From Escherichia phage AV106: DNA of 50,922 nt. The position numbers and the translations under genes were made by a program. The notes beneath the pieces are model-generated. The model saw nothing but the letters and a program-made list of their open reading frames with translations. It made no database searches and was not told the origin of the DNA. The stretch lies in sequence record OR352937.1. One strand, written 5' to 3'. Positions 11-50,922 of the stretch are shown here, one piece after another. Within the stretch, counting starts at the first letter, position 1. Every line of letters begins with the position of its first letter.

Positions 11-427
11 CTATTTCGTTAAATCGTATATTGCCAGCTTGAATTGCTCAAATCCGTATGCGACGGCAGAGAATCCTCCGCGATCCCGAACCTTTTTGAG
101 AAACTCCCTTTGCTTATCGCTGACTGGTGATGCCTTTCCTTTGCCGGACTTATTAACCCGCTTTAGTTCGATAGCTGCAAACGGGTAGCGTGAGTTTATA
201 CCAATCAGAATAACAAAGTCTGACACGCCTTTGAGTAATCCAGCCTGTTCATCCCTTAGCGCCGACGTTATTGTTTTTTCACCTTCATTAACTGTGTGCC
301 AAAATAGAAGCTGAGGAAAATTGTATTTCAACCAGGATACGCAATCTACTTGATGAGCGTCCTCCTTTCTCGTGTCGCTAGGATCTCGCTCGTAAAACTC
401 TAAGTAATCGCCTTTGTCTGTAATCAT
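11..427 (-). CDS. VRR-NUC-type nuclease (PD-(D/E)xK fold)
   Basis: 138 aa; GVSDFVILIG...AAIELKRVN resembles the VRR-NUC D...ExK core; 4-nt overlap with the helicase ORF; stop codon lies inside a dyad motif copy. Confidence 0.55.
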   Translation of the reverse strand: MITDKGDYLEFYERDPSDTRKEDAHQVDCVSWLKYNFPQLLFWHTVNEGEKTITSALRDEQAGLLKGVSDFVILIGINSRYPFAAIELKRVNKSGKGKASPVSDKQREFLKKVRDRGGFSAVAYGFEQFKLAIYDLTK

Positions 428-2442
428 TCCGGGATATCCTCCATACCGAAGTCTTTGCGTGAAATAATATCTTCTTTCTTCTGGTTGCGTCTATGAGTAA
501 CACGTACCGGATGCGCTATATGATGAGAGTATTGCACGATCTTGATAGCGTTCTTCATTCCGATAAAGTAGCGACGCATTTTAGGATCTGACACGTGAGG
601 TAATACTCCTTTCGTTTTCCATAGCGTACCGCAGATCTTAGAGTCTGACTCAGGGAAGAACTTTTCATACGCCTTAAACTCATCACCCTCATCGTTAATA
701 AGCGTGTATTTGTATATCACACCTTTTTGGTTTTTGGTTAACGTAACCTCAAAATTCTTGACCTCGTACCAGTCATTCTTAGTGTACGCCTTACCGGATA
801 ACTTAAGGTTAGGATCGACAAGAGAAACATCGCAACAGCGACAGACTCGGGCCACAACATCATTCTCGGCACCGCACCCTTTAACAAGAATTTTCCCGGT
901 ACGTTCATCAACTTGGTCCTCGCAAATCTGAGAAGTCCAGAAATGATCGCAGCGTTCACCGTCGATAACGTTAACGCAACGGCGAGCATAGAAGCTATTT
1001 ACGCAACCACATTTAGGACACGTTTTCGGGTCTTTTCCGTTCTCGAATCGCTTCTGAAACTGAGCCTGCTCAAGTATAGGGTCAAAATAAAGCTGCCCCA
1101 ACTCGTCCATCGTACCAGCAAAATCCCATACCAGATGATCTTGCTTAACCATTCCTTCAGCAACCTGCCAGGATTTAAGAAGTCGCATACCCCTACCCAA
1201 AAGCTGAATCAGCAAGGTAAGAGATCCTATCTTGCGAAGTATTACACTAAAATCCCAATTTGGAACGTTAACGCCAGTAGTTAGCGCCATGACCTGAAAG
1301 GTATATTTAATTTTCCCAGCCCTCACATCATCAAGAATCTTCTTGCGCGTTTTAGTGTCTGTGTCGCCAGTAATAATTGCATATGTGCTTCCTGGTGGTA
1401 GTGCCGCAGCCGCCTCTTTGCAGTGACGCACCCCGGCGCATGTAATCAGAACTGCGTTACGCTCTTCAGCCTTTTTGGCAACCATTTGCATGATTCGCTG
1501 GGTAAGAGATTTATCATGAAGGATCTCATCTTCCATTGCCTTCATATCTTTCTCTGTGAAGTCCTGCACCCCATCCTCGCTTGATGCCTTAAATTTATCA
1601 AGATCGTAGTGAACTCCGTCCGTCGAGCCGAATATAGTCGGAACGACTGAGCCAAACTCAATAAGGTAGTTGGTGTCTATATCAGTAACGCGCTCACGCC
1701 AGAAGCCTAACGCCTTTGGATTCTCAACAAGAATAGGAACTACACCCCTAAATTCAGATCCAGTCATACCAAATATTCTAAGATCGTGACCGTGAACCTC
1801 TTTACAGCGTCGCATCATTTCCATGATTACGATCGTGTACTGACTGCGCTTAGTTCCAAGAAGAGGCTTTCCATCATTACCAATCAGAGGAGTATCACCG
1901 TCCATGATAATTTTCCCTTTCTCTCCCCGCATCTGTTCCATTGTTTCCTTTCCGTCTATGGCTTGCGCAAGGTCTTCCCAATCCACCTGGTGACATTCAT
2001 CTATCCCGATTACGTGAGGGACAAAATCAGCCAACTCATTATTTAAACCATTTGCAACAGTGCCCTCAGAGCCTACCACGATCGGGAAGTAGCAAGACTT
2101 GATTCCAAGTGACGCTGAGAATATAGAGTTAGTCACTCCGAAATTGTCGATCTCTTCACTATCCTGATCGACAATTTCACCCTGGCGTGCCAGCACAAGC
2201 ATTTTCAAGCCCATTTTTTGACACTGCTTTGCAACCATAGCAAAAATGATGGTCTTACCCGCCGATACTGACGCTTTAACAAAGAATGGATGCTCATAAT
2301 TTGATAGGCGTTTTGCGATCTCAGCATAAGCAACAACCTGGTACGGATACGGAACTACCTCACCAACAGTGAATCGTTCTTGAGTGCGTTTTATATAGTC
2401 CTCGCCAAGTAATGCGATTTGCTTTTTGATGTTAATTGTCAC
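424..2442 (-). CDS. SF2 DNA helicase (DECH box) with C-terminal Cys-rich zinc-ribbon-like region
   Basis: 672 aa; Walker A-like SAGKT, GIDECHQ (DExH box); C-terminal CPKCGC...CxxxxxxxxC cluster; GTG start. Confidence 0.7.
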   Translation of the reverse strand: MTINIKKQIALLGEDYIKRTQERFTVGEVVPYPYQVVAYAEIAKRLSNYEHPFFVKASVSAGKTIIFAMVAKQCQKMGLKMLVLARQGEIVDQDSEEIDNFGVTNSIFSASLGIKSCYFPIVVGSEGTVANGLNNELADFVPHVIGIDECHQVDWEDLAQAIDGKETMEQMRGEKGKIIMDGDTPLIGNDGKPLLGTKRSQYTIVIMEMMRRCKEVHGHDLRIFGMTGSEFRGVVPILVENPKALGFWRERVTDIDTNYLIEFGSVVPTIFGSTDGVHYDLDKFKASSEDGVQDFTEKDMKAMEDEILHDKSLTQRIMQMVAKKAEERNAVLITCAGVRHCKEAAAALPPGSTYAIITGDTDTKTRKKILDDVRAGKIKYTFQVMALTTGVNVPNWDFSVILRKIGSLTLLIQLLGRGMRLLKSWQVAEGMVKQDHLVWDFAGTMDELGQLYFDPILEQAQFQKRFENGKDPKTCPKCGCVNSFYARRCVNVIDGERCDHFWTSQICEDQVDERTGKILVKGCGAENDVVARVCRCCDVSLVDPNLKLSGKAYTKNDWYEVKNFEVTLTKNQKGVIYKYTLINDEGDEFKAYEKFFPESDSKICGTLWKTKGVLPHVSDPKMRRYFIGMKNAIKIVQYSHHIAHPVRVTHRRNQKKEDIISRKDFGMEDIPE

Positions 2443-3050: not shown

Positions 3051-3986
3051 GTGAACGAAGAATTTATGATGTTTCAGAAAGAGGACGTTTTACCGTACAT
3101 GAAGGGGTTATGGCGCGAGGCTTTCCAATCAATCTGCGGATTGCCGAATGATGTTTTTAATAAGAAGCACCAACCCTGCCCAAACTGCGGCGGTAAAGAC
3201 CGCTTTCGCTGGACTGATAACCTGAACACCCCGGGCGACGGCGGCGCGATCTGCAACTCATGCGGTAACGACTCTGGTATTGGCTGGCTGATGAAATTAA
3301 CTGGCATGCCGTACAGCGAATGTATAAACATCCTGGGGAGATTTCTCGGCAAGGTTCCGCAGGAATACATTGTCAAGGCAAACAAGAAAGCGCGCCGAAC
3401 TCCGGTATCAGGTGTCAATGTCATGATGGCAGATCATAAGGCGGTAATGAAAGTTATGGAGCGTACAGAGAAGCGAGTAAACACACCTCTAAGTATTTTT
3501 GAGTCACTACCCACTGAATCATTCGACGTTGGCGTAAAGCGTCGAGAAGATGGCGGGGAGAGCGTATTTCACACTATCCCGTGTCAACTTGTGCATGAGG
3601 ATGGGCTTGATGGCGAGTTTTGCAATATTTTGATTATTGACGAGGAAGGAAGGGAGTCATTTTACGCTAAGAAATACACAAGTTGCTCGGTTGCCGTGAC
3701 TGGTAAAACTGAAAAGGCGATCTACTTATGCCTGAACTGGATTGATGCTCAGCATATTGCATTTCACACAAAGCAAGAGGTATGGGCCTGCTTCACTCCT
3801 GAAAACCTAGAAATGGTTGCGTACAGGTATAAAGGTGATCGAGAAGTAAGGGTGGCATGCGAACCTTCGGACAAGGAGACTTTATACATGGCAGACGACC
3901 GACAATTAAAAATAATCATCCCAAATCCGGGAGGATACCGCTCAGGAATGCAATCCAAATTATTCTCAGCAAGCGATCTACTCTAA
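3051..3986 (+). CDS. DNA primase-like protein (zinc-binding N-terminus)
   Basis: 311 aa; CPNCGGKDRFRW...CNSCG zinc-finger-like motif typical of phage/plasmid primases; GTG at 3051 or ATG at 3066. Confidence 0.55.
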   Translation: MNEEFMMFQKEDVLPYMKGLWREAFQSICGLPNDVFNKKHQPCPNCGGKDRFRWTDNLNTPGDGGAICNSCGNDSGIGWLMKLTGMPYSECINILGRFLGKVPQEYIVKANKKARRTPVSGVNVMMADHKAVMKVMERTEKRVNTPLSIFESLPTESFDVGVKRREDGGESVFHTIPCQLVHEDGLDGEFCNILIIDEEGRESFYAKKYTSCSVAVTGKTEKAIYLCLNWIDAQHIAFHTKQEVWACFTPENLEMVAYRYKGDREVRVACEPSDKETLYMADDRQLKIIIPNPGGYRSGMQSKLFSASDLL

Positions 3987-28703: not shown

Positions 28704-30272
28704 TTACCGCTTAACCATCCCGGCTAGTCGCTTCATTCGCTCGATAGGATCGTCAATTGTCAGTAGTTCAATGTTAGCCGCATCCATGAAGTTATCGACA
28801 ATATCATCATGCGGGTGAGTGTCATCGTAAGTGAAGGCGCTATGTTCTGCGATGATTTCCGCAAGCATAGGGTGCTCTTCTGGAAGAACCACGCGACCAG
28901 CCTTAATGACTGGCTGAGCATCCATCGCTCGGGTAACTTTATCCTTGTTACGCTGCAATGGAGTGATAGAGATCGGAGTCTTCTTCCTGAGATTCTGGAT
29001 TAAGCCCGTACCGCTTGCTTTGTCTTCCACGTAGATTTTACGAAGTACCCCCATTGATTTATTGTGCCTCCATGCCTGATTGACGAAAGCTGTAAATTGC
29101 CTCTCCATATCCGGCGCTTCCCACTTTCCGCGAATGCCGTCGATAAAGTAAACCTTATCATTCTTCTTGCCCCACAAACAAAATACCGTGTAGTCGTTTA
29201 GCTCACCTGTCTTCTGAGCGGTATCGGCAGTGATGAATCGGTAATCATATTTACCCGGATCTGGCTCGTCAGCGTCAAGACTGCTGCCGTAATAAGTCCA
29301 CCACTCTGAGTTAAACACGGAGCCACCCAGCGCGATCGGTTTCTGCTGATACTGAGAATCAAAGGTATACTGATCTGCTTCTCGTAACGCTAACAGGTCG
29401 TGAACGCTTTCCTTGCTGGGCCAAAAAGAGTAATGCTTAACGCCATCCAATTCTACATACTCAGACGATAAAACATCACGCTCAAAGTAAGGCTGCAACC
29501 AATCAGGAAGTGTCTTTCCGTATTCTTCCGTCACCAGCGCCGGTATTGAGATTTGGTCAAACTCAATACCCATCCCGCCATTCATCATGAACCATGTTGA
29601 ATCCTGAGCATGTAGTCGTTGCTGAATTGCAATAATAGGCGTCTCGTTATGCATGCGACGGGATCGAATGGTGTTTTTCAATAGCATGTGTGTACGCTCA
29701 CGCTTAACCTTTGAGAACATATCATCAGGCTTGTCGATATCGTCGAGCATTACCATACCTGAGAATCCCGGCGTCATGTAGCCACCACGCGAACCAGTAA
29801 TACGACCGCCAGCCGCTGCGGATATCAACTCAAACCAAACCTTTCCATCTTCGTTAAGAACCTGCATCTCCTCGTCTTTCGATGTGCCGAACTTGCAAGG
29901 CCATAGCTCTTGAAATTCGTTGCTACTGATAATCTCACGGACGCGCTTACTGTTACGCTTAACCAAGCTGTCAGCAAACGACACGTTAAGGTTTCGCACC
30001 TTCTTACACTTGAGCATTGCGTAAACAGGAAGGTGAATTGAGAACACTTCAGTTTTACCGGAACCTGGCGTGACGTTAAAGATTGTATTCCCTCGTCGGC
30101 CTGCAATAATTTCCTCCACTTCGTGACATAGGTAAAGGTGATGCCAGTTAGGCTGGAACTGCTGAGCCTGCATAAGCTGGAACCAGATCCGAATCATTTT
30201 TTCGAAATTGGCCTCGCTCATTTTCTTGATCGCTAACTTCTGCGTTGCGTTAAGGTCTTCCCATTGAATCAT
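28704..30272 (-). CDS. Terminase large subunit
   Basis: Start moved to second ATG behind RBS GGGAGA; Walker A-like TPGSGKT; conserved nuclease-domain acidic residues in the C-terminal half. Confidence 0.85.
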   Translation of the reverse strand: MIQWEDLNATQKLAIKKMSEANFEKMIRIWFQLMQAQQFQPNWHHLYLCHEVEEIIAGRRGNTIFNVTPGSGKTEVFSIHLPVYAMLKCKKVRNLNVSFADSLVKRNSKRVREIISSNEFQELWPCKFGTSKDEEMQVLNEDGKVWFELISAAAGGRITGSRGGYMTPGFSGMVMLDDIDKPDDMFSKVKRERTHMLLKNTIRSRRMHNETPIIAIQQRLHAQDSTWFMMNGGMGIEFDQISIPALVTEEYGKTLPDWLQPYFERDVLSSEYVELDGVKHYSFWPSKESVHDLLALREADQYTFDSQYQQKPIALGGSVFNSEWWTYYGSSLDADEPDPGKYDYRFITADTAQKTGELNDYTVFCLWGKKNDKVYFIDGIRGKWEAPDMERQFTAFVNQAWRHNKSMGVLRKIYVEDKASGTGLIQNLRKKTPISITPLQRNKDKVTRAMDAQPVIKAGRVVLPEEHPMLAEIIAEHSAFTYDDTHPHDDIVDNFMDAANIELLTIDDPIERMKRLAGMVKR

Positions 30273-30311
30273 GATTAAGTCTCCCATGCGGGCGCTCGCG
30301 CGCCCCTAACG

Positions 30312-30836
30312 TTAAAGCATATCAAGAATGCTGTTTACCGCCTCTTTCATCGCATCCTCAGTAGTGGCGACTACTGTCGATGCGGAAGCTGACGAGTTTT
30401 CGATATTGATTGAGGTTGGCTTATCGATTCCGAGATCCTTACCGATAAAGGAGGCATTAATAACACCGTTGGCGGCAAGCTGGAATTTTTGCTCATTGAT
30501 TACCGATTCCACAAACTCCATAACCTCGCTGTATTCTTCCTCTCGCTTCCACTTAATGATCGCGGCCTCGCTTGCACCGATGAATAGTCGGTATCCGGTC
30601 CAGGTGAAGACGCGCGGCTTATGAACTAGCGATTCATAAACGCCACCCTGAAAGCTGGCTGATTCTGACGCCTTGATTGCGTTGTCCTCAGCCCATTCGA
30701 AATACTTAACTGACAGATCGAATAGTTGCTCAGGCGTCATTGCCCGGTTTTTAGCAAGAACAGTGCCGAACTTTTTCTTGTATAGCTCTTTGAAATTGCC
30801 TCCCTGGACTACGGGGGCGTTCTTAGGTTCACTCAT
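30312..30836 (-). CDS. Terminase small subunit
   Basis: Start moved to ATG behind RBS AAAGAGGATGG; directly upstream of the large terminase gene; preceded by a dyad motif and a terminator. Confidence 0.5.
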   Translation of the reverse strand: MSEPKNAPVVQGGNFKELYKKKFGTVLAKNRAMTPEQLFDLSVKYFEWAEDNAIKASESASFQGGVYESLVHKPRVFTWTGYRLFIGASEAAIIKWKREEEYSEVMEFVESVINEQKFQLAANGVINASFIGKDLGIDKPTSINIENSSASASTVVATTEDAMKEAVNSILDML

Positions 30837-30888
30837 AAATCCATCCTCTTTGTTTAACATTTAGTGCTATTTTACCATATTGCAGGCA

Positions 30889-40064: not shown

Positions 40065-40111
40065 TTGTCTATACCTCGTTGTCTATGGGTGTAACTTTCA
40101 ACTTCGAAAAA

Positions 40112-40141
40112 CATGTTACAGCTACAACGTCAGGCGCGTCA
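40112..40141 (-). promoter_or_regulatory. Candidate sigma70-like promoter for the first minus-strand early gene
   Basis: Minus strand TTGACG, 18-bp spacer, TAACAT, about 40 nt upstream of the GTG start at 40064. Confidence 0.35.
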
Positions 40142-40348
40142 ATGTCTATAGCTGCATTTTTTATTTTTGTAACCAGTGCAACCGATGCAACCGACTTTTT
40201 CTATAAAAGTAAGCACATCTATTTATGCGCGCGGAATAGTATGTTTTTTATACTATGCATCACGAAATATATGCCACCATCAAAAAATGCGGTTGCACCT
40301 ATTACGCCGATTACATACCAATATATAATATAATAAATAAATAAATAT

Positions 40349-40427
40349 ATATTATCTATCTTATTATTATATATAGATATTTTATTATATATAGGCCCAT
40401 CGACTCGCTGGCCATTTTGTAACACCC
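40349..40427. repeat. AT-rich control module, copy B
   Basis: Same two anchor sequences (13 bp and 14 bp identical) with the same 52-bp spacing as copy A. Confidence 0.6.
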
Positions 40428-40677
40428 CTGATGGTATACAACTATTACGACAATTACAACTACCGCATAGACGAATAGCACGTTTTGCTAAAAATGGAGA
40501 TGACTACAAGGCGAACCGGGTAACACTAGATCCTCCCTCTCACAATCATTGCATTCCAAGCAACAATCACATCAACAGTTGCACATCATGCAACAATCAC
40601 ATTTCATCATTCGGGATCAATCAGGATCGCAATTATTCCAGATATTCCATTGCTGGTGGAATAATGAGCAACTATTG

Positions 40678-40724
40678 GAATAGCATTTTTTGCTAACGAC
40701 TTGGTCAGGCTGGCAGTGTATGAT
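40678..40724 (+). promoter_or_regulatory. Dyad-motif promoter for the C5-methyltransferase gene
   Basis: AATAGCATTTTTTGCTAACG, 23 bp, TATGAT, then leader CATCAACCAATCAGTAGGAGA. Confidence 0.5.
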
Positions 40725-40757
40725 TCATCACATCAACCAATCAGTAGGAGATTTGCA

Positions 40758-41462
40758 ATGAAATTAATCTGGTCGCTATTCGACGGTTCCGGTCTTGCTG
40801 GTCATGAACTGGCTAAGCAAGGTCACAAGGTGATGTGCTTCAACTTTGACGGAGCCGATCACGGGGATTATGCAAAGTACAATGCCCGGGTGGAGCATCC
40901 GAACATTGAGTATGTGAACGTGTTCATTGACGCAGCGTTTGAGCGTGATGCTATCGCTGGCGTGTATGGCAAGCCGGATTTCATTATGGCCTTCCCGCCG
41001 TGCACTGACCTGGCTGTTAGTGGTGCCGCTCACTTCGCAAGAAAGCGTGAACGCGATCCGTTATTCCAGGAGAAGGCTGTTGCCACCGCCCGGATTACTG
41101 CAAATATTGGCGACGCCCTGGGCGTGACTTACATCATTGAGAATCCGGTTAGCGTCCTGTCATCTGCCTGGAGAAAACCAAATCACTCCTTCAATCCCTG
41201 GGAGTATGGCGGCTATCTTCCTGAGAATGACTCACACCCCTGGTTCCCTATGTATATTGCGCCGCGCGATGCTTACCCGAAGAAAACTTGTCTGTGGACC
41301 TCTGACGATTTTGTCATGCCTGAAAGAAAACCTGTAAGCCTACCTGACGGGTACTCTGCACAGCACAGTAAGCTAGGCGGCAAATCTGCCAAAACTAAGT
41401 TGATACGATCCCTGTCGCCGCGTGGATTTTTCAAAGCGATCGCAAATAGCACTTTTTGTTAA
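40758..41462 (+). CDS. DNA (cytosine-5) methyltransferase, short Dcm-like
   Basis: Start moved to ATG behind a dyad-motif promoter and leader; motif I LFDGSGLAG (FxGxG), motif IV FPPC (catalytic Pro-Cys), motif VI IENPV (ENV-like). Confidence 0.55.
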   Translation: MKLIWSLFDGSGLAGHELAKQGHKVMCFNFDGADHGDYAKYNARVEHPNIEYVNVFIDAAFERDAIAGVYGKPDFIMAFPPCTDLAVSGAAHFARKRERDPLFQEKAVATARITANIGDALGVTYIIENPVSVLSSAWRKPNHSFNPWEYGGYLPENDSHPWFPMYIAPRDAYPKKTCLWTSDDFVMPERKPVSLPDGYSAQHSKLGGKSAKTKLIRSLSPRGFFKAIANSTFC

Positions 41463-41489
41463 AACTCGATCGGTGTGATTTGGCATAAT
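41445..41489 (+). promoter_or_regulatory. Dyad-motif promoter
   Basis: AATAGCACTTTTTGTTAAAAC, 22 bp, CATAAT; overlaps the 3' end of the methyltransferase ORF. Confidence 0.55.
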
Positions 41490-41522
41490 TACCTCATCGA
41501 AACGAGATTGAGGAAAAACAAA

Positions 41523-41708
41523 ATGGCACGTCGCATCACTAAAGACCTTAAAGTTCTGAACAAAGAAAACGTAGTTAAAATTCTGGTTATTTGGGGGTAC
41601 AACGAAGAATCAGCAAAGCAGAAGGTAGAAGCGGGTTACGATCTGGCTGTCAAAGCGATGCCTAACGACGACGCAAAAGGCATTGCAAACTATGTATCAT
41701 TCTTTTAA
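41523..41708 (+). CDS. Hypothetical small protein
   Basis: Start moved to ATG (MARRITKDL) after dyad motif, CATAAT and RBS GAGGAAAAA. Confidence 0.4.
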   Translation: MARRITKDLKVLNKENVVKILVIWGYNEESAKQKVEAGYDLAVKAMPNDDAKGIANYVSFF

Positions 41709-41723
41709 TTAACGGGCTAACAA

Positions 41724-41909
41724 ATGAAAACGAAATTAGTGCATAAATCAGAAATCAAGATAGGCGACACTGTGATTCACAACGGAGAGCTTAGAACTGT
41801 TGGTAAGGAGTCAATAACCAAAGATGAATTTATGGGGTTATTGTTGTTCGGCGACTCTTATCGCTTGGGTTACAAAATGGTTGAGCTTGTTGAGGAAGTA
41901 AAATTCTAA
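41724..41909 (+). CDS. Hypothetical small protein
   Basis: 61 aa. Confidence 0.35.
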   Translation: MKTKLVHKSEIKIGDTVIHNGELRTVGKESITKDEFMGLLLFGDSYRLGYKMVELVEEVKF

Positions 41910-41953
41910 ATAGCACGAATTGCTAAACGCCCCGAGGGGAATCGGGGTATAGT
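41908..41953 (+). promoter_or_regulatory. Dyad-motif promoter
   Basis: AATAGCACGAATTGCTAAACG, 22 bp, TATAGT in the loop of CCCCGA...TCGGGG, then leader CATCAACCAATCAGGAGA. Confidence 0.55.
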
Positions 41954-41984
41954 GAACACATCAACCAATCAGGAGAATCGCCAG

Positions 41985-42215
41985 ATGGCAATCAAACATC
42001 CCGGATTAAAGAAAGCAATCCAGCGAGCAAATGACGAGGGATTTATTGTATATCGCACACATTACGGTCACATGGGTGGACTTAAAGAGCATCATACAAA
42101 GGTTGAGCTTGTGGACTTGTGGGAGGATTACGATACATTCCAGTACATCGCCACGTCTGACGTAGAGGCGCAAGTGAAATACATCAATGACACTATTGAT
42201 AGCTTCAGAGGGTAA
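41985..42215 (+). CDS. Hypothetical protein
   Basis: Start moved to ATG (MAIKHPGL) behind leader AACCAATCAGGAGAATCGCCAG; dyad motif and TATAGT upstream. Confidence 0.45.
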   Translation: MAIKHPGLKKAIQRANDEGFIVYRTHYGHMGGLKEHHTKVELVDLWEDYDTFQYIATSDVEAQVKYINDTIDSFRG

Positions 42216-42219
42216 TTAT

Positions 42220-43820: not shown

Positions 43821-43856
43821 GACCTTATTCAAGATAACCAATCAGGAATTAACGAA

Positions 43857-44273
43857 ATGAAATCCATCAAACTGAAATGTACTCACGCAGATAAAATCAC
43901 AGGATTTGAAGTAAACAACATATACAAAGGTCGTGAGCGCTATGATGGCACTCGCGAAGTAAAATTAAAATGCGGGAAGTATTTAAAACTTGAAAAGCAT
44001 GATGAATTACAGATTCACGGATCTGATGAAATTTTCTTCGCGAAGTTCACTGAGTTGAAAACAAAGACGCTCAAGTGCACCGGGCTTGACCATCGCAACC
44101 CAATGAAAAAATCATTCAAAGTTGGCAAGCGTTACCAGGTTGAAAGCGGTCGCGCTCTCGGTGGCGTAGCTGGTTACATCTTTGATGAAGATGGTTGTCG
44201 CTGGACCTTATTTCGCGAAGAGGTTGGTTTTAGTATCGCAGACGGCACAACCTTTGAGGCCAAATACTTATAA
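43857..44273 (+). CDS. Hypothetical protein
   Basis: 138 aa; leader AACCAATCAGGAATTAACGAA; dyad motif and TAAAGT upstream. Confidence 0.45.
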   Translation: MKSIKLKCTHADKITGFEVNNIYKGRERYDGTREVKLKCGKYLKLEKHDELQIHGSDEIFFAKFTELKTKTLKCTGLDHRNPMKKSFKVGKRYQVESGRALGGVAGYIFDEDGCRWTLFREEVGFSIADGTTFEAKYL

Positions 44274-44275
44274 CC

Positions 44276-44320
44276 AATAGCACTTTTTGCAAAACGCGTG
44301 TACCATTGGCGGTGTATCAT
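44276..44320 (+). promoter_or_regulatory. Dyad-motif promoter
   Basis: AATAGCACTTTTTGCAAAACG, 22 bp, TATCAT in the loop of CGGTGTA...TACACCG. Confidence 0.55.
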
Positions 44321-44349
44321 TTACACCGTCAACTAAGGAGTTTATTGTG

Positions 44350-45918
44350 ATGTTTAATATTAAGCCAAAACTGAATTACCAACAGATTATTGAGATCGCC
44401 AATAGCACTGGAGTTAATCCGGTGGCGATCGCAATTCGTGAAAACAGCTATGGTGACTCAGTTTCATTTTGGCAAGATCCGATCGATATCAATAGCGGCA
44501 ACGATAAGTTCCCTCTGATTTCGTTAGGTGGCGATAACCTGGTATTCGAATATGCAAAAGCAAAGGCCGAGTCTGTACAGTTCCCTGTTTCGTCTGCGTA
44601 CGCTCATTTCATTGGGTGCATATCAGCCGCGATGCTCGGGAAGTTTTGGGTGCAATATCACGGAGAAGAACAACCAACCGCTCTTTACATGGTAATCAGC
44701 CAGCCACCGTCAACAGGTAAATCTGCGATTAACTCCGCAGCGATTACGCCTATGCGCGCAGAGATTCAGCGACTGAATGAAGAGCGAAAAAAGGAACGTA
44801 TCCGTTTAACCAGTCAGCTACGTCAGGTCGAGAAGGAAATTAAAAACGACCCGAAGGGTAACACGACGGCAGCGCTATACGAGGACAAGGAAAAACTGGA
44901 AGAAAAGATCAAGAAGATGGCTGATATTGTTTTCGCTGTATCAGATCCTACACCTGAAGGTCTTGCGAAGGTGGCGGCTGTTCAAGGTCACTTCTCAGTA
45001 ATCTCTGATGAGGCGACAGCAATCAACACATTGCTCGGCCTGACTTATGGCGGCTCTGATAAGAAATCAAACAGCGAACTTATCCTTAAGGCGTGGGATA
45101 AAAACCATATGGAGGTCGCGCGTTCAAACCAAGACAACAACTTATCTCTTTGCCCGGTCGGTTCGATCTGCGTCATTGCGCAGGATGAAACAATCAAGGG
45201 TATCATGGACGCAGGCCAGCGAGGCATCGGCGTATCTGAGCGTTTCCTTTTAGTTCGTGAGGAGCCGCTTTTAGGTACTCGTATTCTTTGTGATGAAAAT
45301 GGTGATGCGCTGTATAAGGAAGTCGATCGAGGATTGGTGAGTAAATATTATCGACTCGTGCACAACATCATGAAAGAGGATAACGTTGTTCTCTCTGTAA
45401 GCCGTAATGCTATGCGTGAATTAAACCTTGCGCGTCAGGCTATGGAACCGGATTTCGCCGCAGGTGGGAAATACTCTCACTCAATGCTACGCGGTCATCT
45501 CGGCAAGTTCGATAAGCACGCCTTGCGTATTGCTTCAGTTCTCCACACGATCAAAAATTGGGATGGTGAATCACCGAACCGTTCCAACCGTGAGATTGAC
45601 CTTGAAACGATGCAGGAAGCAATCATGATCTTCAATGAGCTTTCCAGGACTTATCTGTCGTCTGCCAGCGCTGCCGGGTATGCAGGTGATGAGGCTGAAT
45701 CTCGTAAGCTGATTGATGTTATCACTGAGATCGCGAAGAAGAACAAAGGCCGCGCACCTATTCATAGCATCGTTGCAAAGTGCCGGAACGTTACTCCGTT
45801 CAACGGTCAACAGAAAGTATCTGAGAGAATAGATAGCCTGCTGATCACGCTCGAAGAGATGAACTACACTTGCCGCATTGATGATATTGTTTTCATCAAT
45901 CCTAGACTGATGGGTTAA
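44350..45918 (+). CDS. P-loop NTPase, candidate replication or helicase-loader ATPase
   Basis: Start moved to ATG behind RBS AAGGAG; Walker A-like QPPSTGKSA; long Lys/Glu-rich helical segment. Confidence 0.4.
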   Translation: MFNIKPKLNYQQIIEIANSTGVNPVAIAIRENSYGDSVSFWQDPIDINSGNDKFPLISLGGDNLVFEYAKAKAESVQFPVSSAYAHFIGCISAAMLGKFWVQYHGEEQPTALYMVISQPPSTGKSAINSAAITPMRAEIQRLNEERKKERIRLTSQLRQVEKEIKNDPKGNTTAALYEDKEKLEEKIKKMADIVFAVSDPTPEGLAKVAAVQGHFSVISDEATAINTLLGLTYGGSDKKSNSELILKAWDKNHMEVARSNQDNNLSLCPVGSICVIAQDETIKGIMDAGQRGIGVSERFLLVREEPLLGTRILCDENGDALYKEVDRGLVSKYYRLVHNIMKEDNVVLSVSRNAMRELNLARQAMEPDFAAGGKYSHSMLRGHLGKFDKHALRIASVLHTIKNWDGESPNRSNREIDLETMQEAIMIFNELSRTYLSSASAAGYAGDEAESRKLIDVITEIAKKNKGRAPIHSIVAKCRNVTPFNGQQKVSERIDSLLITLEEMNYTCRIDDIVFINPRLMG

Positions 45919-45922
45919 TAAT

Positions 45923-46330
45923 ATGCTTCTTCTTTTAGATCTGTTCAGGTTCTGCGAAGGTTACGACAAATACACTCGACAGCACATAGCGAAATTTATA
46001 TACGCCCACAAGGAAAGTGAGCGTTTTGCTAAGGCTGCTGGAATGACTCGCCGTGAATTTACAAGCGCGCTATCTAAGGAGTTTTGCGCTCGTTGCGTGA
46101 CTGAGGGTTACTTAGATCGCAATGATGGAGTTTACTGGTGCAAGGGAAAGATTAAGCGCCCGGTAATGATGAAGCTGATGTGTATTGATGGCTACAACAA
46201 TCGGTATACGTGGGAAATGATGCACATTGGAGAGATGAGTGATGAAGATTTGTTTGGCGAACGTAGAAACATTGATAGATCGGAACGTCGAATTGTGCGC
46301 AAGGCTCCAGCTTACGAAAGAAGAATTTGA
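45923..46330 (+). CDS. Hypothetical protein
   Basis: 135 aa; several Cys (CxxC-like). Confidence 0.35.
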   Translation: MLLLLDLFRFCEGYDKYTRQHIAKFIYAHKESERFAKAAGMTRREFTSALSKEFCARCVTEGYLDRNDGVYWCKGKIKRPVMMKLMCIDGYNNRYTWEMMHIGEMSDEDLFGERRNIDRSERRIVRKAPAYERRI

Positions 46331-46442
46331 GCAAGGGTTGTTGAGTCTGTTACTCACTTCAATGAGGGCCAGTAACGAAAGCGAGCATAATCTTTGCGAT
46401 AAGGAGGGGGAGTTACTCCTTCATGTGAAAAGGTACAAATAA

Positions 46443-46470
46443 GAAAGGAGGCTTAGCCTCCTTTTTTTCC
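46443..46470. terminator. Bidirectional terminator between the convergent plus early array and lysis cassette
   Basis: AGGAGGC-tta-GCCTCCT followed by TTTTTTT. Confidence 0.6.
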
Positions 46471-46857
46471 GTTCTTACGAAGTGAAAAATAAATCATCAA
46501 CAGGCCAATAAAAACGAGAGTCCACCCTACAATTGCATCGTACCAGTTCCCCGGTTTTGTTACCGTGATGCTTTCAGCGTTAACCGTGTTAGCCTGAATG
46601 GTTGACACTTCTACAGACTTCTTGACGGATGAGTCAATCTTGCCAATATTTGAATCACTCACCTTCACTTCTCGCTTATCGTCGGCCTTTGCAGTAACTC
46701 CCGCCAGTTGCTTCGTGTTCTCAGCGCCAACCTGCGCAGTAACATCCGGGGAGTCAGAAAGTAAACCGCTCAGAGCAGATGCCGTCGAGCAACCGGATAG
46801 AGAAATAACACCAACAGCCACTGCAATCGCAATGCACGTTTTCTTCAGTTTCATCAT
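46453..46857 (-). CDS. Unimolecular spanin (lipoprotein with C-terminal transmembrane anchor)
   Basis: 134 aa; N-terminal signal peptide with lipobox LSGC and C-terminal helix [19 protein letters not shown], the topology described for T1 gp11; directly downstream of the endolysin. Confidence 0.6.
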
Positions 46858-50865: not shown

Positions 50866-50922
50866 TTTTAATCCTCTCGTTTCGGTGAGATAATAATGCC
50901 AGATTCCATTCCGGCAGTTTTA

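What the first reader, a model, noticed from the sequence alone, without database searches (positions are those of the whole stretch)
44350..45918. Large early P-loop ATPase of unassigned function
Seen directly: a 522-aa protein with Walker A-like PPSTGKSA and long Lys/Glu-rich helices, at the end of the plus-strand early array and driven by a dyad promoter. The helicase and primase are encoded elsewhere. Inference: an origin-binding initiator or helicase loader, or an anti-defence ATPase.
Basis: inference. Interest (0 to 1): 0.4.

Follow-up and report, generated by a model that had tools for sequence, protein, structure and literature searches.

The report
MCM-like replicative helicase of T1-like phage
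The "unassigned" ATPase is the well-conserved DUF3987 (MCM-like AAA+) DNA helicase of T1-type coliphages, almost certainly the phage's replication-fork helicase, so it is a real gene of an already recognised kind and not a new one.

The parts
44350..45918 (+). CDS of the DUF3987 / MCM-like AAA+ helicase (522 aa plus stop). It is the orthologue of T1 ST9. An alternative GTG start lies at 44347.
44278..44293 (+). Copy of the genome-wide intergenic repeat TAGCACnnnTTGyTAA, an imperfect dyad TAGCA..TGCTA.
   Evidence: 21 copies against 0.22 expected. The element is described for TLS and T1 in PMC11447400.
44306..44332 (+). 11-bp stem / 5-nt loop inverted repeat TTGGCGGTGTA-tcatt-TACACCGTCAA. It holds a -10-like TATCAT at 44315-44320, 21 nt after the repeat, which is the same register as in most other copies.
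   Evidence: DNA fold -9.4 kcal/mol, z=-4.0
44335..44340 (+). Shine-Dalgarno AAGGAG, 9 nt before the ATG at 44350
44350..44634 (+). N-terminal helical domain (aa 1-95), acidic (pI 4.8). It is not an MCM-type OB/Zn domain.
44635..45264 (+). AAA+ ATPase core (aa 96-305)
44701..44724 (+). Walker A / P-loop QPPSTGKS (aa 118-125). K124 is invariant.
44719..44916 (+). Long Lys/Glu-rich helical hairpin directly after the P-loop (aa 124-189, net charge +5)
44989..45012 (+). Walker B strand HFSVISDE (aa 214-221). E221 is invariant. D220 is Ala in one sub-clade of homologues.
45109..45150 (+). Beta-hairpin immediately before strand beta4 (aa 254-267, with invariant R258). Its position matches the pre-sensor-1 hairpin of MCM-type motors.
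   Evidence: (DSSP E254-256 and E265-267). The assignment is inferred.
45157..45189 (+). Strand beta4 plus the invariant IAQDE (aa 270-280), at the sensor-1 position
45235..45246 (+). S-E-R-F (aa 296-299). S, E and R are invariant and F is nearly so. This is the candidate arginine finger, resembling the MCM 'SRF' motif.
   Evidence: The likeness to the MCM motif rests on established knowledge of MCM.
45265..45675 (+). Helical lid and linker (aa 306-442), with the invariant R381-G382..G385-K386-x-D388 (sensor-2 region, nt 45484-45513)
45676..45915 (+). C-terminal winged-helix domain (aa 443-522). It also matches phrog_7327.
45923..46330 (+). Downstream gene (135 aa, T1 ST10 orthologue). It starts 4 nt after the helicase stop. 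It is a basic protein with an N-terminal winged-helix fold and a disordered basic tail, and is a possible DNA-binding partner.
46444..46464 (.). GC-rich hairpin (terminator-like) that closes the plus-strand array against the convergent lysis cassette
3051..3986 (+). Stand-alone zinc-ribbon primase of T7 gp4 / P4 alpha type. It matches only the N-terminal half of the primase-helicase profile phrog_510. It is the likely partner of the helicase, about 8 kb away on the circular map.
424..2442 (-). The 'other helicase': an SF2 ATPase (ResIII + Helicase_C) homologous to E. coli RadD
   Evidence: E=3.8e-40 to RadD 6jde

Best explanation
The gene encodes the replicative DNA helicase of this T1-like phage. 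The protein belongs to the DUF3987 family, whose ATPase core is an MCM-like (superfamily 6) AAA+ fold. Following the family precedent, subunits assemble into a ring. ATP is bound by the P-loop (K124) and hydrolysed with the Walker B Glu (E221). An arginine from the neighbouring subunit (R298 in S-E-R-F) is presumed to complete each active site. Hairpins lining the pore pull one DNA strand through and open the duplex ahead of the host DNA polymerase III, because the phage has no polymerase of its own. The separately encoded zinc-ribbon primase (3051-3986) would prime on the unwound strand. The C-terminal winged helix, and possibly the co-translated small winged-helix protein (45923-46330), would position or load the ring on phage DNA. 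What is shown here: family membership, the fold, the conserved catalytic residues, the fusions of relatives to primase and DnaB-N domains, and purifying selection. What is inferred: the ring assembly, the polarity, the partnership with the primase, and self-loading.
For: (1) Family. Pfam DUF3987 E=3.1e-42, 145.5 bits against a cut-off of 27. PHROG 2373 'DNA helicase' E=2e-233.

(3) Catalytic residues. K124, E221, S296-E297-R298 and R381 are invariant in 23 homologues down to 35% identity.

(4) Domain fusions. The profile finds 5748 representative clusters. Of 38 longer relatives, the ones with an assignable N-terminal extension carry the DnaB N-terminal domain (3), the DnaG CHC2 zinc ribbon (2), BT4734-type AEP (2), Prim-Pol (1), PriCT_2 (1) or the NrS-1 polymerase HBD (1). 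Every one of these is a replication domain.

(5) Genome logic. The only primase matches just the primase half of a primase-helicase profile. The only other helicase is RadD-like SF2. Pfam and PHROG scans of ten selected ORFs, together with the annotations of relatives T1 and LeonhardEuler, show no DnaB-type helicase and no polymerase (the TLS paper says the same).

(6) Synteny in distant phages. In Klebsiella phage VLCpiS13e the gene order is DUF3987 gene, one small gene, primase, SF2 helicase, two small genes, then exonuclease VIII. In Vibrio phage BUCT006 the DUF3987 gene and the primase lie on the same strand, about 2 kb apart.

(7) Constraint. There are 925 phage records with a match. Against T1 there are 100 nucleotide differences but only 3 amino-acid changes.

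(8) Literature. DUF3987 was predicted to be an SF6 replicative helicase with a C-terminal wHTH (PMC4889955). [quoted passage not shown]
Against: No T1-like member has been tested biochemically or genetically in anything I could find. In this genome the gene is not next to the primase. It is about 8 kb away, on the other side of the lysis cassette. The protein lacks the MCM N-terminal OB/Zn domain and has no Pfam MCM hit, so MCM-like mechanics are an extrapolation from the ATPase core alone. Polarity is uncertain: MCM moves 3'->5', whereas the one DUF3987 protein tested moves 5'->3'. Ring assembly was not modelled. Authors working on T1/TLS have assumed that the SF2 protein is 'the helicase'. 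Whether T1 also needs host DnaB could not be checked (one search found nothing).
Confidence: 0.75

Rival explanations
1. Initiator or helicase loader only. The protein would bind the phage origin and recruit or load host DnaB, in the manner of lambda O/P or DnaC, without itself unwinding DNA at the fork.
For: It has a C-terminal winged helix whose structural neighbours include ORC and Cdc6 winged-helix domains. The phage replication origin is unknown. A basic winged-helix protein is encoded 4 nt downstream.
Confidence: 0.08
2. Recombination or branch-migration motor. The protein would be a ComM/RuvB-like ring ATPase that works with the phage Erf and exonuclease VIII proteins to drive recombination-dependent replication and concatemer formation, and would not be the primary fork helicase.
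Confidence: 0.1
3. Anti-defence or host-takeover ATPase that is unrelated to replication.
For: It lies in an arm of small, mostly uncharacterised genes that also carries a DNA methyltransferase.
Against: It is matched in 925 phage records, most of them T1-like (Drexlerviridae) phages, and in more distant siphoviruses. Its sequence is almost frozen, with 3 amino-acid changes per 100 nucleotide changes. Accessory anti-defence genes are typically variable and patchy. All domain fusions found are to replication domains. There is no significant PADLOC match.
Confidence: 0.03
4. Packaging or structural ATPase. This is the outcome the first reader said would refute its own idea.
For: None found.
Against: The terminase genes lie elsewhere: T1 annotates them as ST53 and ST54, and the collinear window ORFs are 28704-30287 and 30312-30860. 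No Pfam, PHROG or fold match points to terminase or portal families.
Confidence: 0.01

Closest known systems
T1 ST9 (YP_003936) and its orthologues in T1-like (Drexlerviridae) phages, for example LeonhardEuler bas13_0045
   Same: Orthologous gene. It differs from T1 ST9 by 3 amino acids and from the LeonhardEuler protein by 1. It has the same neighbours and the same upstream repeat.
   Different: T1 and JMPW2 carry an HNH homing-endonuclease gene directly upstream, which is absent here. None of these proteins has been characterised experimentally.
AgaPH, the PriCT-DUF3987 helicase of a Seonamhaeicola mobile element (PMC11724360)
   Same: [quoted passage not shown] AgaPH is an oligomeric, ATP/dATP-dependent helicase that binds its cognate primase.
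   Different: AgaPH has an N-terminal PriCT domain and partners an AEP primase-polymerase. The phage protein has a different 95-aa N-domain, and the phage primase is of the DnaG/T7-gp4 zinc-ribbon type.
MCM helicases (archaeal MCM, eukaryotic Mcm2-7, MCM8/9), superfamily 6
   Different: About 11% identity and no Pfam MCM hit. There is no N-terminal OB/zinc domain. A long charged helical hairpin follows the P-loop. Polarity may be the opposite.
Phage N4 dns and Mycobacterium phage Corndog SF6 proteins (Kazlauskas et al. 2016)
   Same: Phage DUF3987 / SF6 proteins proposed to be replicative helicases with a C-terminal wHTH. N4 dns is reported to be essential for replication.
   Different: N4 dns carries a C-terminal AEP primase domain, whereas the protein here is a helicase only.
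P4 alpha protein and T7 gp4 (primase-helicase fusions)
   Same: The same division of labour: a zinc-ribbon primase plus a ring helicase. P4 alpha also has a C-terminal origin-binding winged helix. The T1 primase is annotated as similar to the P4-type alpha protein.
   Different: Their motors are SF3 (P4) or RecA-type SF4 (T7). In the phage here the primase and helicase are separate genes about 8 kb apart. The statements about P4 and T7 domain structure come from established knowledge and were not tested here.
SCCmec Cch (DUF927) and SaPI Rep self-loading helicases
   Different: They belong to different Pfam families. Reps show 3'->5' polarity (section title). Origin binding by the phage protein is unproven.

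Membership tests
DUF3987 (PF13148) | Score above the Pfam gathering threshold over the whole domain | tested here: met
   145.5 bits against 27. Residues 78-432 align to profile positions 2-355 of 364.
DUF3987 (PF13148) | [quoted passage not shown] | tested here: met
   QPPSxGK[ST] and hhISD/A-E, with invariant K124 and E221 in 23 homologues. The motifs are named for the family in PMC11724360.
DUF3987 (PF13148) | [quoted passage not shown] | tested here: met
   [not shown]
DUF3987 (PF13148) | Fusion to, or adjacency with, an AEP or DnaG primase (typical but not obligatory) | tested here: inconclusive
   It is not adjacent in this genome, where the primase is about 8 kb away. It is one small gene away, or on the same strand nearby, in distant phages. 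Relatives are fused to primase domains.
DUF3987 (PF13148) | ATP-dependent DNA unwinding | not testable with these tools
   Shown only for AgaPH.
MCM / superfamily 6 helicases | AAA+ core with an MCM-type fold | tested here: met
   [not shown]
MCM / superfamily 6 helicases | Sequence membership in Pfam MCM (PF00493) | tested here: not met
   DUF3987 is the only family reported at E<=1.
MCM / superfamily 6 helicases | N-terminal OB-fold / zinc DNA-binding domain | tested here: not met
   The N-terminal 95 aa are helical. MCM alignments cover only about 250 residues.
MCM / superfamily 6 helicases | Pre-sensor-1 beta-hairpin and a trans arginine finger (SRF motif) | tested here: inconclusive
   The hairpin at aa 254-267 directly before beta4, and the invariant S-E-R-F before beta5, fit these features. 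They were read from a predicted monomer, not from an assembled ring. No helix-2 insert hairpin was seen.
MCM / superfamily 6 helicases | Hexameric ring and 3'->5' translocation | not testable with these tools
   No multimer prediction or assay was available. The one DUF3987 protein tested is 5'->3'.
AAA+ initiator/loader clade (DnaA, DnaC, Orc/Cdc6) | ATPase core closest to the initiator clade | tested here: not met
   [not shown]
DnaB / SF4 (RecA-fold) replicative helicases | DnaB_C / RecA-type motor domain | tested here: not met
   There is no such Pfam hit, and the fold neighbours are AAA+ proteins. Some relatives carry a DnaB N-terminal domain in front of DUF3987.
SF3 primase-helicases (P4 alpha, poxvirus D5) | D5_N / Pox_D5-type helicase domain | tested here: not met
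   No such Pfam or PHROG hit.
Terminase or other packaging ATPases | Terminase large-subunit ATPase or nuclease domains | tested here: not met
   No such hit. The terminase genes are annotated elsewhere in the collinear T1 genome.

The most novel reading that the evidence does not exclude
T1-type phages would run a hybrid replisome. An MCM-fold AAA+ ring would take the place and the polarity (5'->3', lagging strand) of bacterial DnaB. It would work with a DnaG/T7-type zinc-ribbon primase and host Pol III, and it would load itself on phage DNA through its own winged helix together with the co-translated small winged-helix protein ST10. That would make the protein both initiator and fork helicase, and the phage independent of DnaA, DnaB and DnaC. 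The fusions of relatives to the DnaB N-domain and the DnaG zinc ribbon and the 5'->3' result for AgaPH allow this reading but do not show it.
Probability: 0.3. Interest if true: 0.5.

Novelty: already known. Interest (0 to 1): 0.2.

Why it matters
T1-like phages are common laboratory and fermentation contaminants and are candidates for phage therapy. Their replication origin and fork machinery are still undefined, and recent genome papers still name only the SF2 protein as 'the helicase'. Assigning the fork-helicase role to the DUF3987 protein and the repair role to the RadD-like protein corrects that picture. It also gives a clear experimental target. More broadly, DUF3987 is a very large family (5748 representative clusters) of MCM-fold motors in bacterial mobile elements. 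Its polarity and loading mechanism are known from a single study, and a genetically tractable T1-like phage would be a convenient model for it. As a genome-scan finding, however, it is ordinary.

Tried and rejected
Searches that returned nothing useful:
- Sequence searches of the PDB with the protein and with a 23-sequence profile gave only noise. The link to MCM is visible only through structure.
- NCBIfam gave no hit.
- PADLOC gave only an insignificant LmuB match, E=0.002 with no stretch that passes the threshold on its own.
- Rfam and tRNA scans of the whole window were empty, so nothing non-coding of a known family is hidden in or near the gene.
- The minus-strand ORFs inside the gene (60 and 79 aa) were not pursued. 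The third-position pattern of substitutions fits the plus-strand frame.

Literature searches that led nowhere:
- Escape mutants in the Drexlerviridae helicase: the Avs and Druantia papers concern other proteins.
- T1 amber mutants and host dna requirements returned nothing usable.
- The supplement of Kazlauskas 2016 is not held.

Ideas considered and rejected or downgraded:
- The TTG at 44287 as the start codon. It would place the intergenic repeat and the hairpin inside the coding sequence, and no homologue starts there.
- The canonical sigma-70 scan did not single out a promoter. It found 15 sites against 13.7 expected.
That remains possible, but the ends of the T1 record map inside it, at 40594/40595, so the repeats there may serve packaging instead.

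Full report
WHAT THE WINDOW IS

The 1.6-kb query matches 60 phage records at 90-97% DNA identity. All are Escherichia or Shigella T1-like phages of the genus Tunavirus, family Drexlerviridae. A BLAST of the whole window against the T1 reference shows end-to-end collinearity in reverse orientation. Window position 1 joins position 50922 at T1 38966/38967. The window is therefore a complete, circularly permuted genome of a T1-like phage.

CHECK OF THE OBSERVATION

The mechanical ORF runs 44287..45918. It is preceded by AAGGAG at 44335-44340, and all 23 aligned homologues start there. A GTG at 44347 is used in one GenBank annotation and cannot be excluded.

QPPSTGKS lies at aa 118-125. The Lys/Glu-rich stretch (aa 124-189; 11 K, 10 E and 6 R in 67 residues) is modelled as two long helices.

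Against T1, 100 codons differ, and 97 of those differences are synonymous. The ORF is therefore a gene under very strong constraint.

Three details need correction.
- The gene is the penultimate one of the plus-strand array, not the last. A 135-aa gene follows at 45923-46330, and a terminator-like hairpin closes the array at 46444-46464.
- The 'dyad promoter' is one copy of a genome-wide repeat whose function is unknown (see 'Seen in passing').
- The helicase 'encoded elsewhere' is not a fork-type helicase (see 'Genome logic').

WHAT IT IS

Family:
- The protein is an unambiguous DUF3987 member: Pfam E=3.1e-42, 145.5 bits against a cut-off of 27.
- It is the core of PHROG 2373, 'DNA helicase', at E=2e-233. 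A second PHROG (7327) covers its last 85 residues.
- Orthologues include T1 ST9 and LeonhardEuler bas13_0045. They are annotated either 'DNA helicase', 'putative helicase' or 'hypothetical protein'.
- tblastn finds the gene in 925 phage records, mostly T1-like phages of Klebsiella, Escherichia, Salmonella and Shigella.
- A profile search finds 5748 representative clusters in public data.

Sequence searches of the PDB are empty.

Structure:
- The AlphaFold model built on a 23-sequence alignment is confident: pLDDT 88, pTM 0.86.
- All 50 best Foldseek matches are MCM chains.
- The last 80 residues form a winged helix that matches ORC2, Cdc6 and the MCM C-terminal winged helix.
- The first 95 residues form a small acidic helical domain. 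It is not the OB/zinc domain of MCM.

Invariant residues in the alignment map onto the expected AAA+ elements of the model:
- Walker A: Q118-P-P-S-x-G-K124.
- Walker B: strand 214-219 followed by D220-E221. E221 is invariant. D220 is Ala in one sub-clade.
- A beta-hairpin at aa 254-267 with invariant R258, immediately before strand beta4.
- I-A-Q-D-E at aa 276-280, at the sensor-1 position.
- S296-E-R298-F immediately before strand beta5. This resembles the MCM 'SRF' arginine finger. The resemblance rests on established knowledge of MCM and was not tested here.
- R381-G..G-K-x-D in the lid.

WHY A REPLICATIVE HELICASE

Literature:
- Kazlauskas et al. (2016) placed phage DUF3987 proteins in superfamily 6, distantly related to MCM. 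They noted the C-terminal wHTH and the frequent fusion or adjacency to AEP or DnaG primases, and they proposed a replicative role (PMC4889955).
- The 2018 AEP survey made the same prediction (PMC5862659).
- In 2025 a PriCT-DUF3987 protein, AgaPH, was purified. It behaves as an oligomer, binds its primase-polymerase, and unwinds 5'-tailed and forked DNA using ATP or dATP. [quoted passage not shown]

Evidence produced here points the same way. Of 38 longer relatives taken from the best 150 representatives, every N-terminal extension that could be assigned is a replication domain: the DnaB N-terminal domain (3), the DnaG CHC2 zinc ribbon (2), BT4734-type AEP (2), Prim-Pol (1), PriCT_2 (1) and the NrS-1 polymerase HBD (1). 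In the DnaB-N fusions, DUF3987 sits where the DnaB motor domain normally is.

GENOME LOGIC

- The primase (3051-3986) has the T7-gp4 / P4-alpha type zinc ribbon. It matches only the first half of the 667-position primase profile phrog_510, so it is a primase without a helicase half.
- The 'other' helicase (424-2442, minus strand) is an SF2 protein with ResIII and Helicase_C domains. It is homologous to E. coli RadD at E=3.8e-40, which makes it a repair and recombination accessory enzyme.
- Erf and exonuclease VIII homologues are present.
- No polymerase and no DnaB-type helicase appear in the ORFs I scanned or in the annotations of relatives. The TLS paper reports the same.

The DUF3987 protein is thus the only candidate for a ring-shaped fork helicase.

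In this genome it lies about 8 kb from the primase on the circular map. In the distantly related Klebsiella phage VLCpiS13e the gene order is DUF3987, one small gene, primase, SF2 helicase, two small genes, then exonuclease VIII. In Vibrio phage BUCT006 the DUF3987 gene and the primase lie on the same strand about 2 kb apart.

HOW IT PROBABLY WORKS (INFERENCE)

A ring of subunits would hydrolyse ATP at inter-subunit sites formed by K124 and E221 in cis and R298 in trans. Pore hairpins would pull one strand through. The primase would be recruited to the unwound strand, and host Pol III would do the synthesis.

Polarity is open. MCM moves 3'->5'. AgaPH moves 5'->3', and the DnaB-N and DnaG fusions would fit a DnaB-like, lagging-strand role.

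RIVALS

- Loader or initiator only. This is disfavoured because the ATPase core matches translocases. ORC and Cdc6 match only through the winged helix.
- Anti-defence. Nothing supports it: near-frozen sequence, presence throughout the T1-like phages, replication-domain fusions, and no PADLOC hit.
- Packaging or structural. Excluded.

NOVELTY

The exact protein is already in GenBank and RefSeq as a helicase. The family-level function was predicted in 2016 and demonstrated for one member in 2025. The finding is therefore already known.

What remains open is whether the T1-type protein is the fork helicase, which way it moves, and how it is loaded. No T1-like member appears to have been tested, and the recent TLS re-annotation still discusses only the SF2 protein as 'the helicase'.

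SEEN IN PASSING

(a) The intergenic repeat. The 'dyad promoter' is the repeat aaATAGCACnnnTTGnTAAAA, which the TLS paper describes as an element of unknown role, possibly a stoperator, an enhancer site or an UP element.
- It has 21 copies here against 0.22 expected. They lie in the direction of local transcription wherever the neighbouring genes were identified.
- What I did not find mentioned in the parts of that paper I read: in about 16 copies a -10-like hexamer (TATAGT, TATTAT or TAGAAT) sits at a fixed 20-22 nt after the repeat.
- Most of these copies also have an inverted repeat of 5-11 bp that spans that hexamer. Its arms differ from copy to copy but stay complementary. The mean DNA-fold z-score is -1.8, against -0.3 for random 44-mers.
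- The TTGCTA-to--10 spacing of about 22 nt is too long for a standard sigma-70 promoter.

(b) The repeat-rich region 40065-40757. It holds a tract of about 80 bp at 16% GC (40318-40395) and several GCAAC-type repeats. The ends of the T1 record map to 40594/40595, between two 24-nt direct repeats. This region may therefore be the packaging start as much as an origin.

(c) T1 has an HNH endonuclease gene inserted at 44272-44275, which is absent here.

(d) Window 40738-42218, which includes a DNA methyltransferase, has no counterpart in T1.

Noticed in passing
window, 21 copies. Plus strand: 40476, 40681, 41447, 41911, 43263, 43778, 44278. Minus strand: 49912, 39228, 38491, 37437, 36876, 36150, 34515, 33995, 32700, 4065, 2523.: The genome-wide intergenic repeat TAGCACnnnTTGyTAA has 21 copies against 0.22 expected and follows the direction of local transcription wherever the neighbouring genes were identified. 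It is known from TLS and T1 as an element of unknown role (PMC11447400). About 16 copies have a -10-like hexamer (TATAGT, TATTAT or TAGAAT) at a fixed 20-22 nt downstream. In most of them that hexamer lies inside a 5-11 bp inverted repeat whose arms vary between copies but remain complementary (mean DNA-fold z -1.8, against -0.3 for controls). The roughly 22-nt distance from TTGCTA to the -10 is too long for a standard sigma-70 promoter. This suggests an activator or operator site, or a structure-dependent promoter.
   Followed up: partly
window 40065-40757: The divergent non-coding region has a tract of about 80 bp at 16% GC (40318-40395), GCAACCG repeats (40176-40195, with an inverted copy at 40289-40298) and two 24-nt direct repeats, TTGCAnnnCAnGCAACAATCACAT (40549-40572 and 40579-40602). 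The ends of the T1 reference record map to 40594/40595, between those two repeats. The region may be the pac / genome-end site rather than, or as well as, the replication origin.
   Followed up: partly
[not shown]
   Followed up: partly
window 424-2442 (-): The SF2 protein usually called 'the helicase' of T1-like phages is a homologue of E. coli RadD (E=3.8e-40 to PDB 6jde). That points to a repair or recombination accessory role, not fork unwinding.
   Followed up: partly
window 44272-44275, compared with L002 (T1) 46160-46622: T1 (and JMPW2) carry an HNH homing-endonuclease gene (ST8) inserted between the upstream gene and the intergenic repeat in front of the helicase. The insertion is absent from this window.
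   Followed up: partly
window 40738-42218: This 1.5-kb segment includes a DNA methyltransferase (ORF 40701-41462, phrog_757; annotated Dcm-like in LeonhardEuler). It has no counterpart in T1 apart from one copy of the intergenic repeat.
   Followed up: no
window 40729-40747, 41957-41975, about 43834-43850, and several minus-strand leaders (for example after 36150, 33995 and 38491): A conserved leader sequence, (C)AACCAATCAG(G)AG, recurs just upstream of start codons and overlaps the Shine-Dalgarno site. It may be a shared 5'-UTR or translation element.
   Followed up: no
alignment A1, column of D220 (nt 45007-45009): In a sub-clade of homologues (P0101, P0103, P0111, P0112, P0116, P0118-P0120) the Walker B Asp is replaced by Ala (ISAEA), while the following Glu stays invariant. 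A second invariant acidic pair (Q-D-E, aa 278-280) follows strand beta4, so the roles of the two acidic pairs in catalysis are not settled.
   Followed up: no
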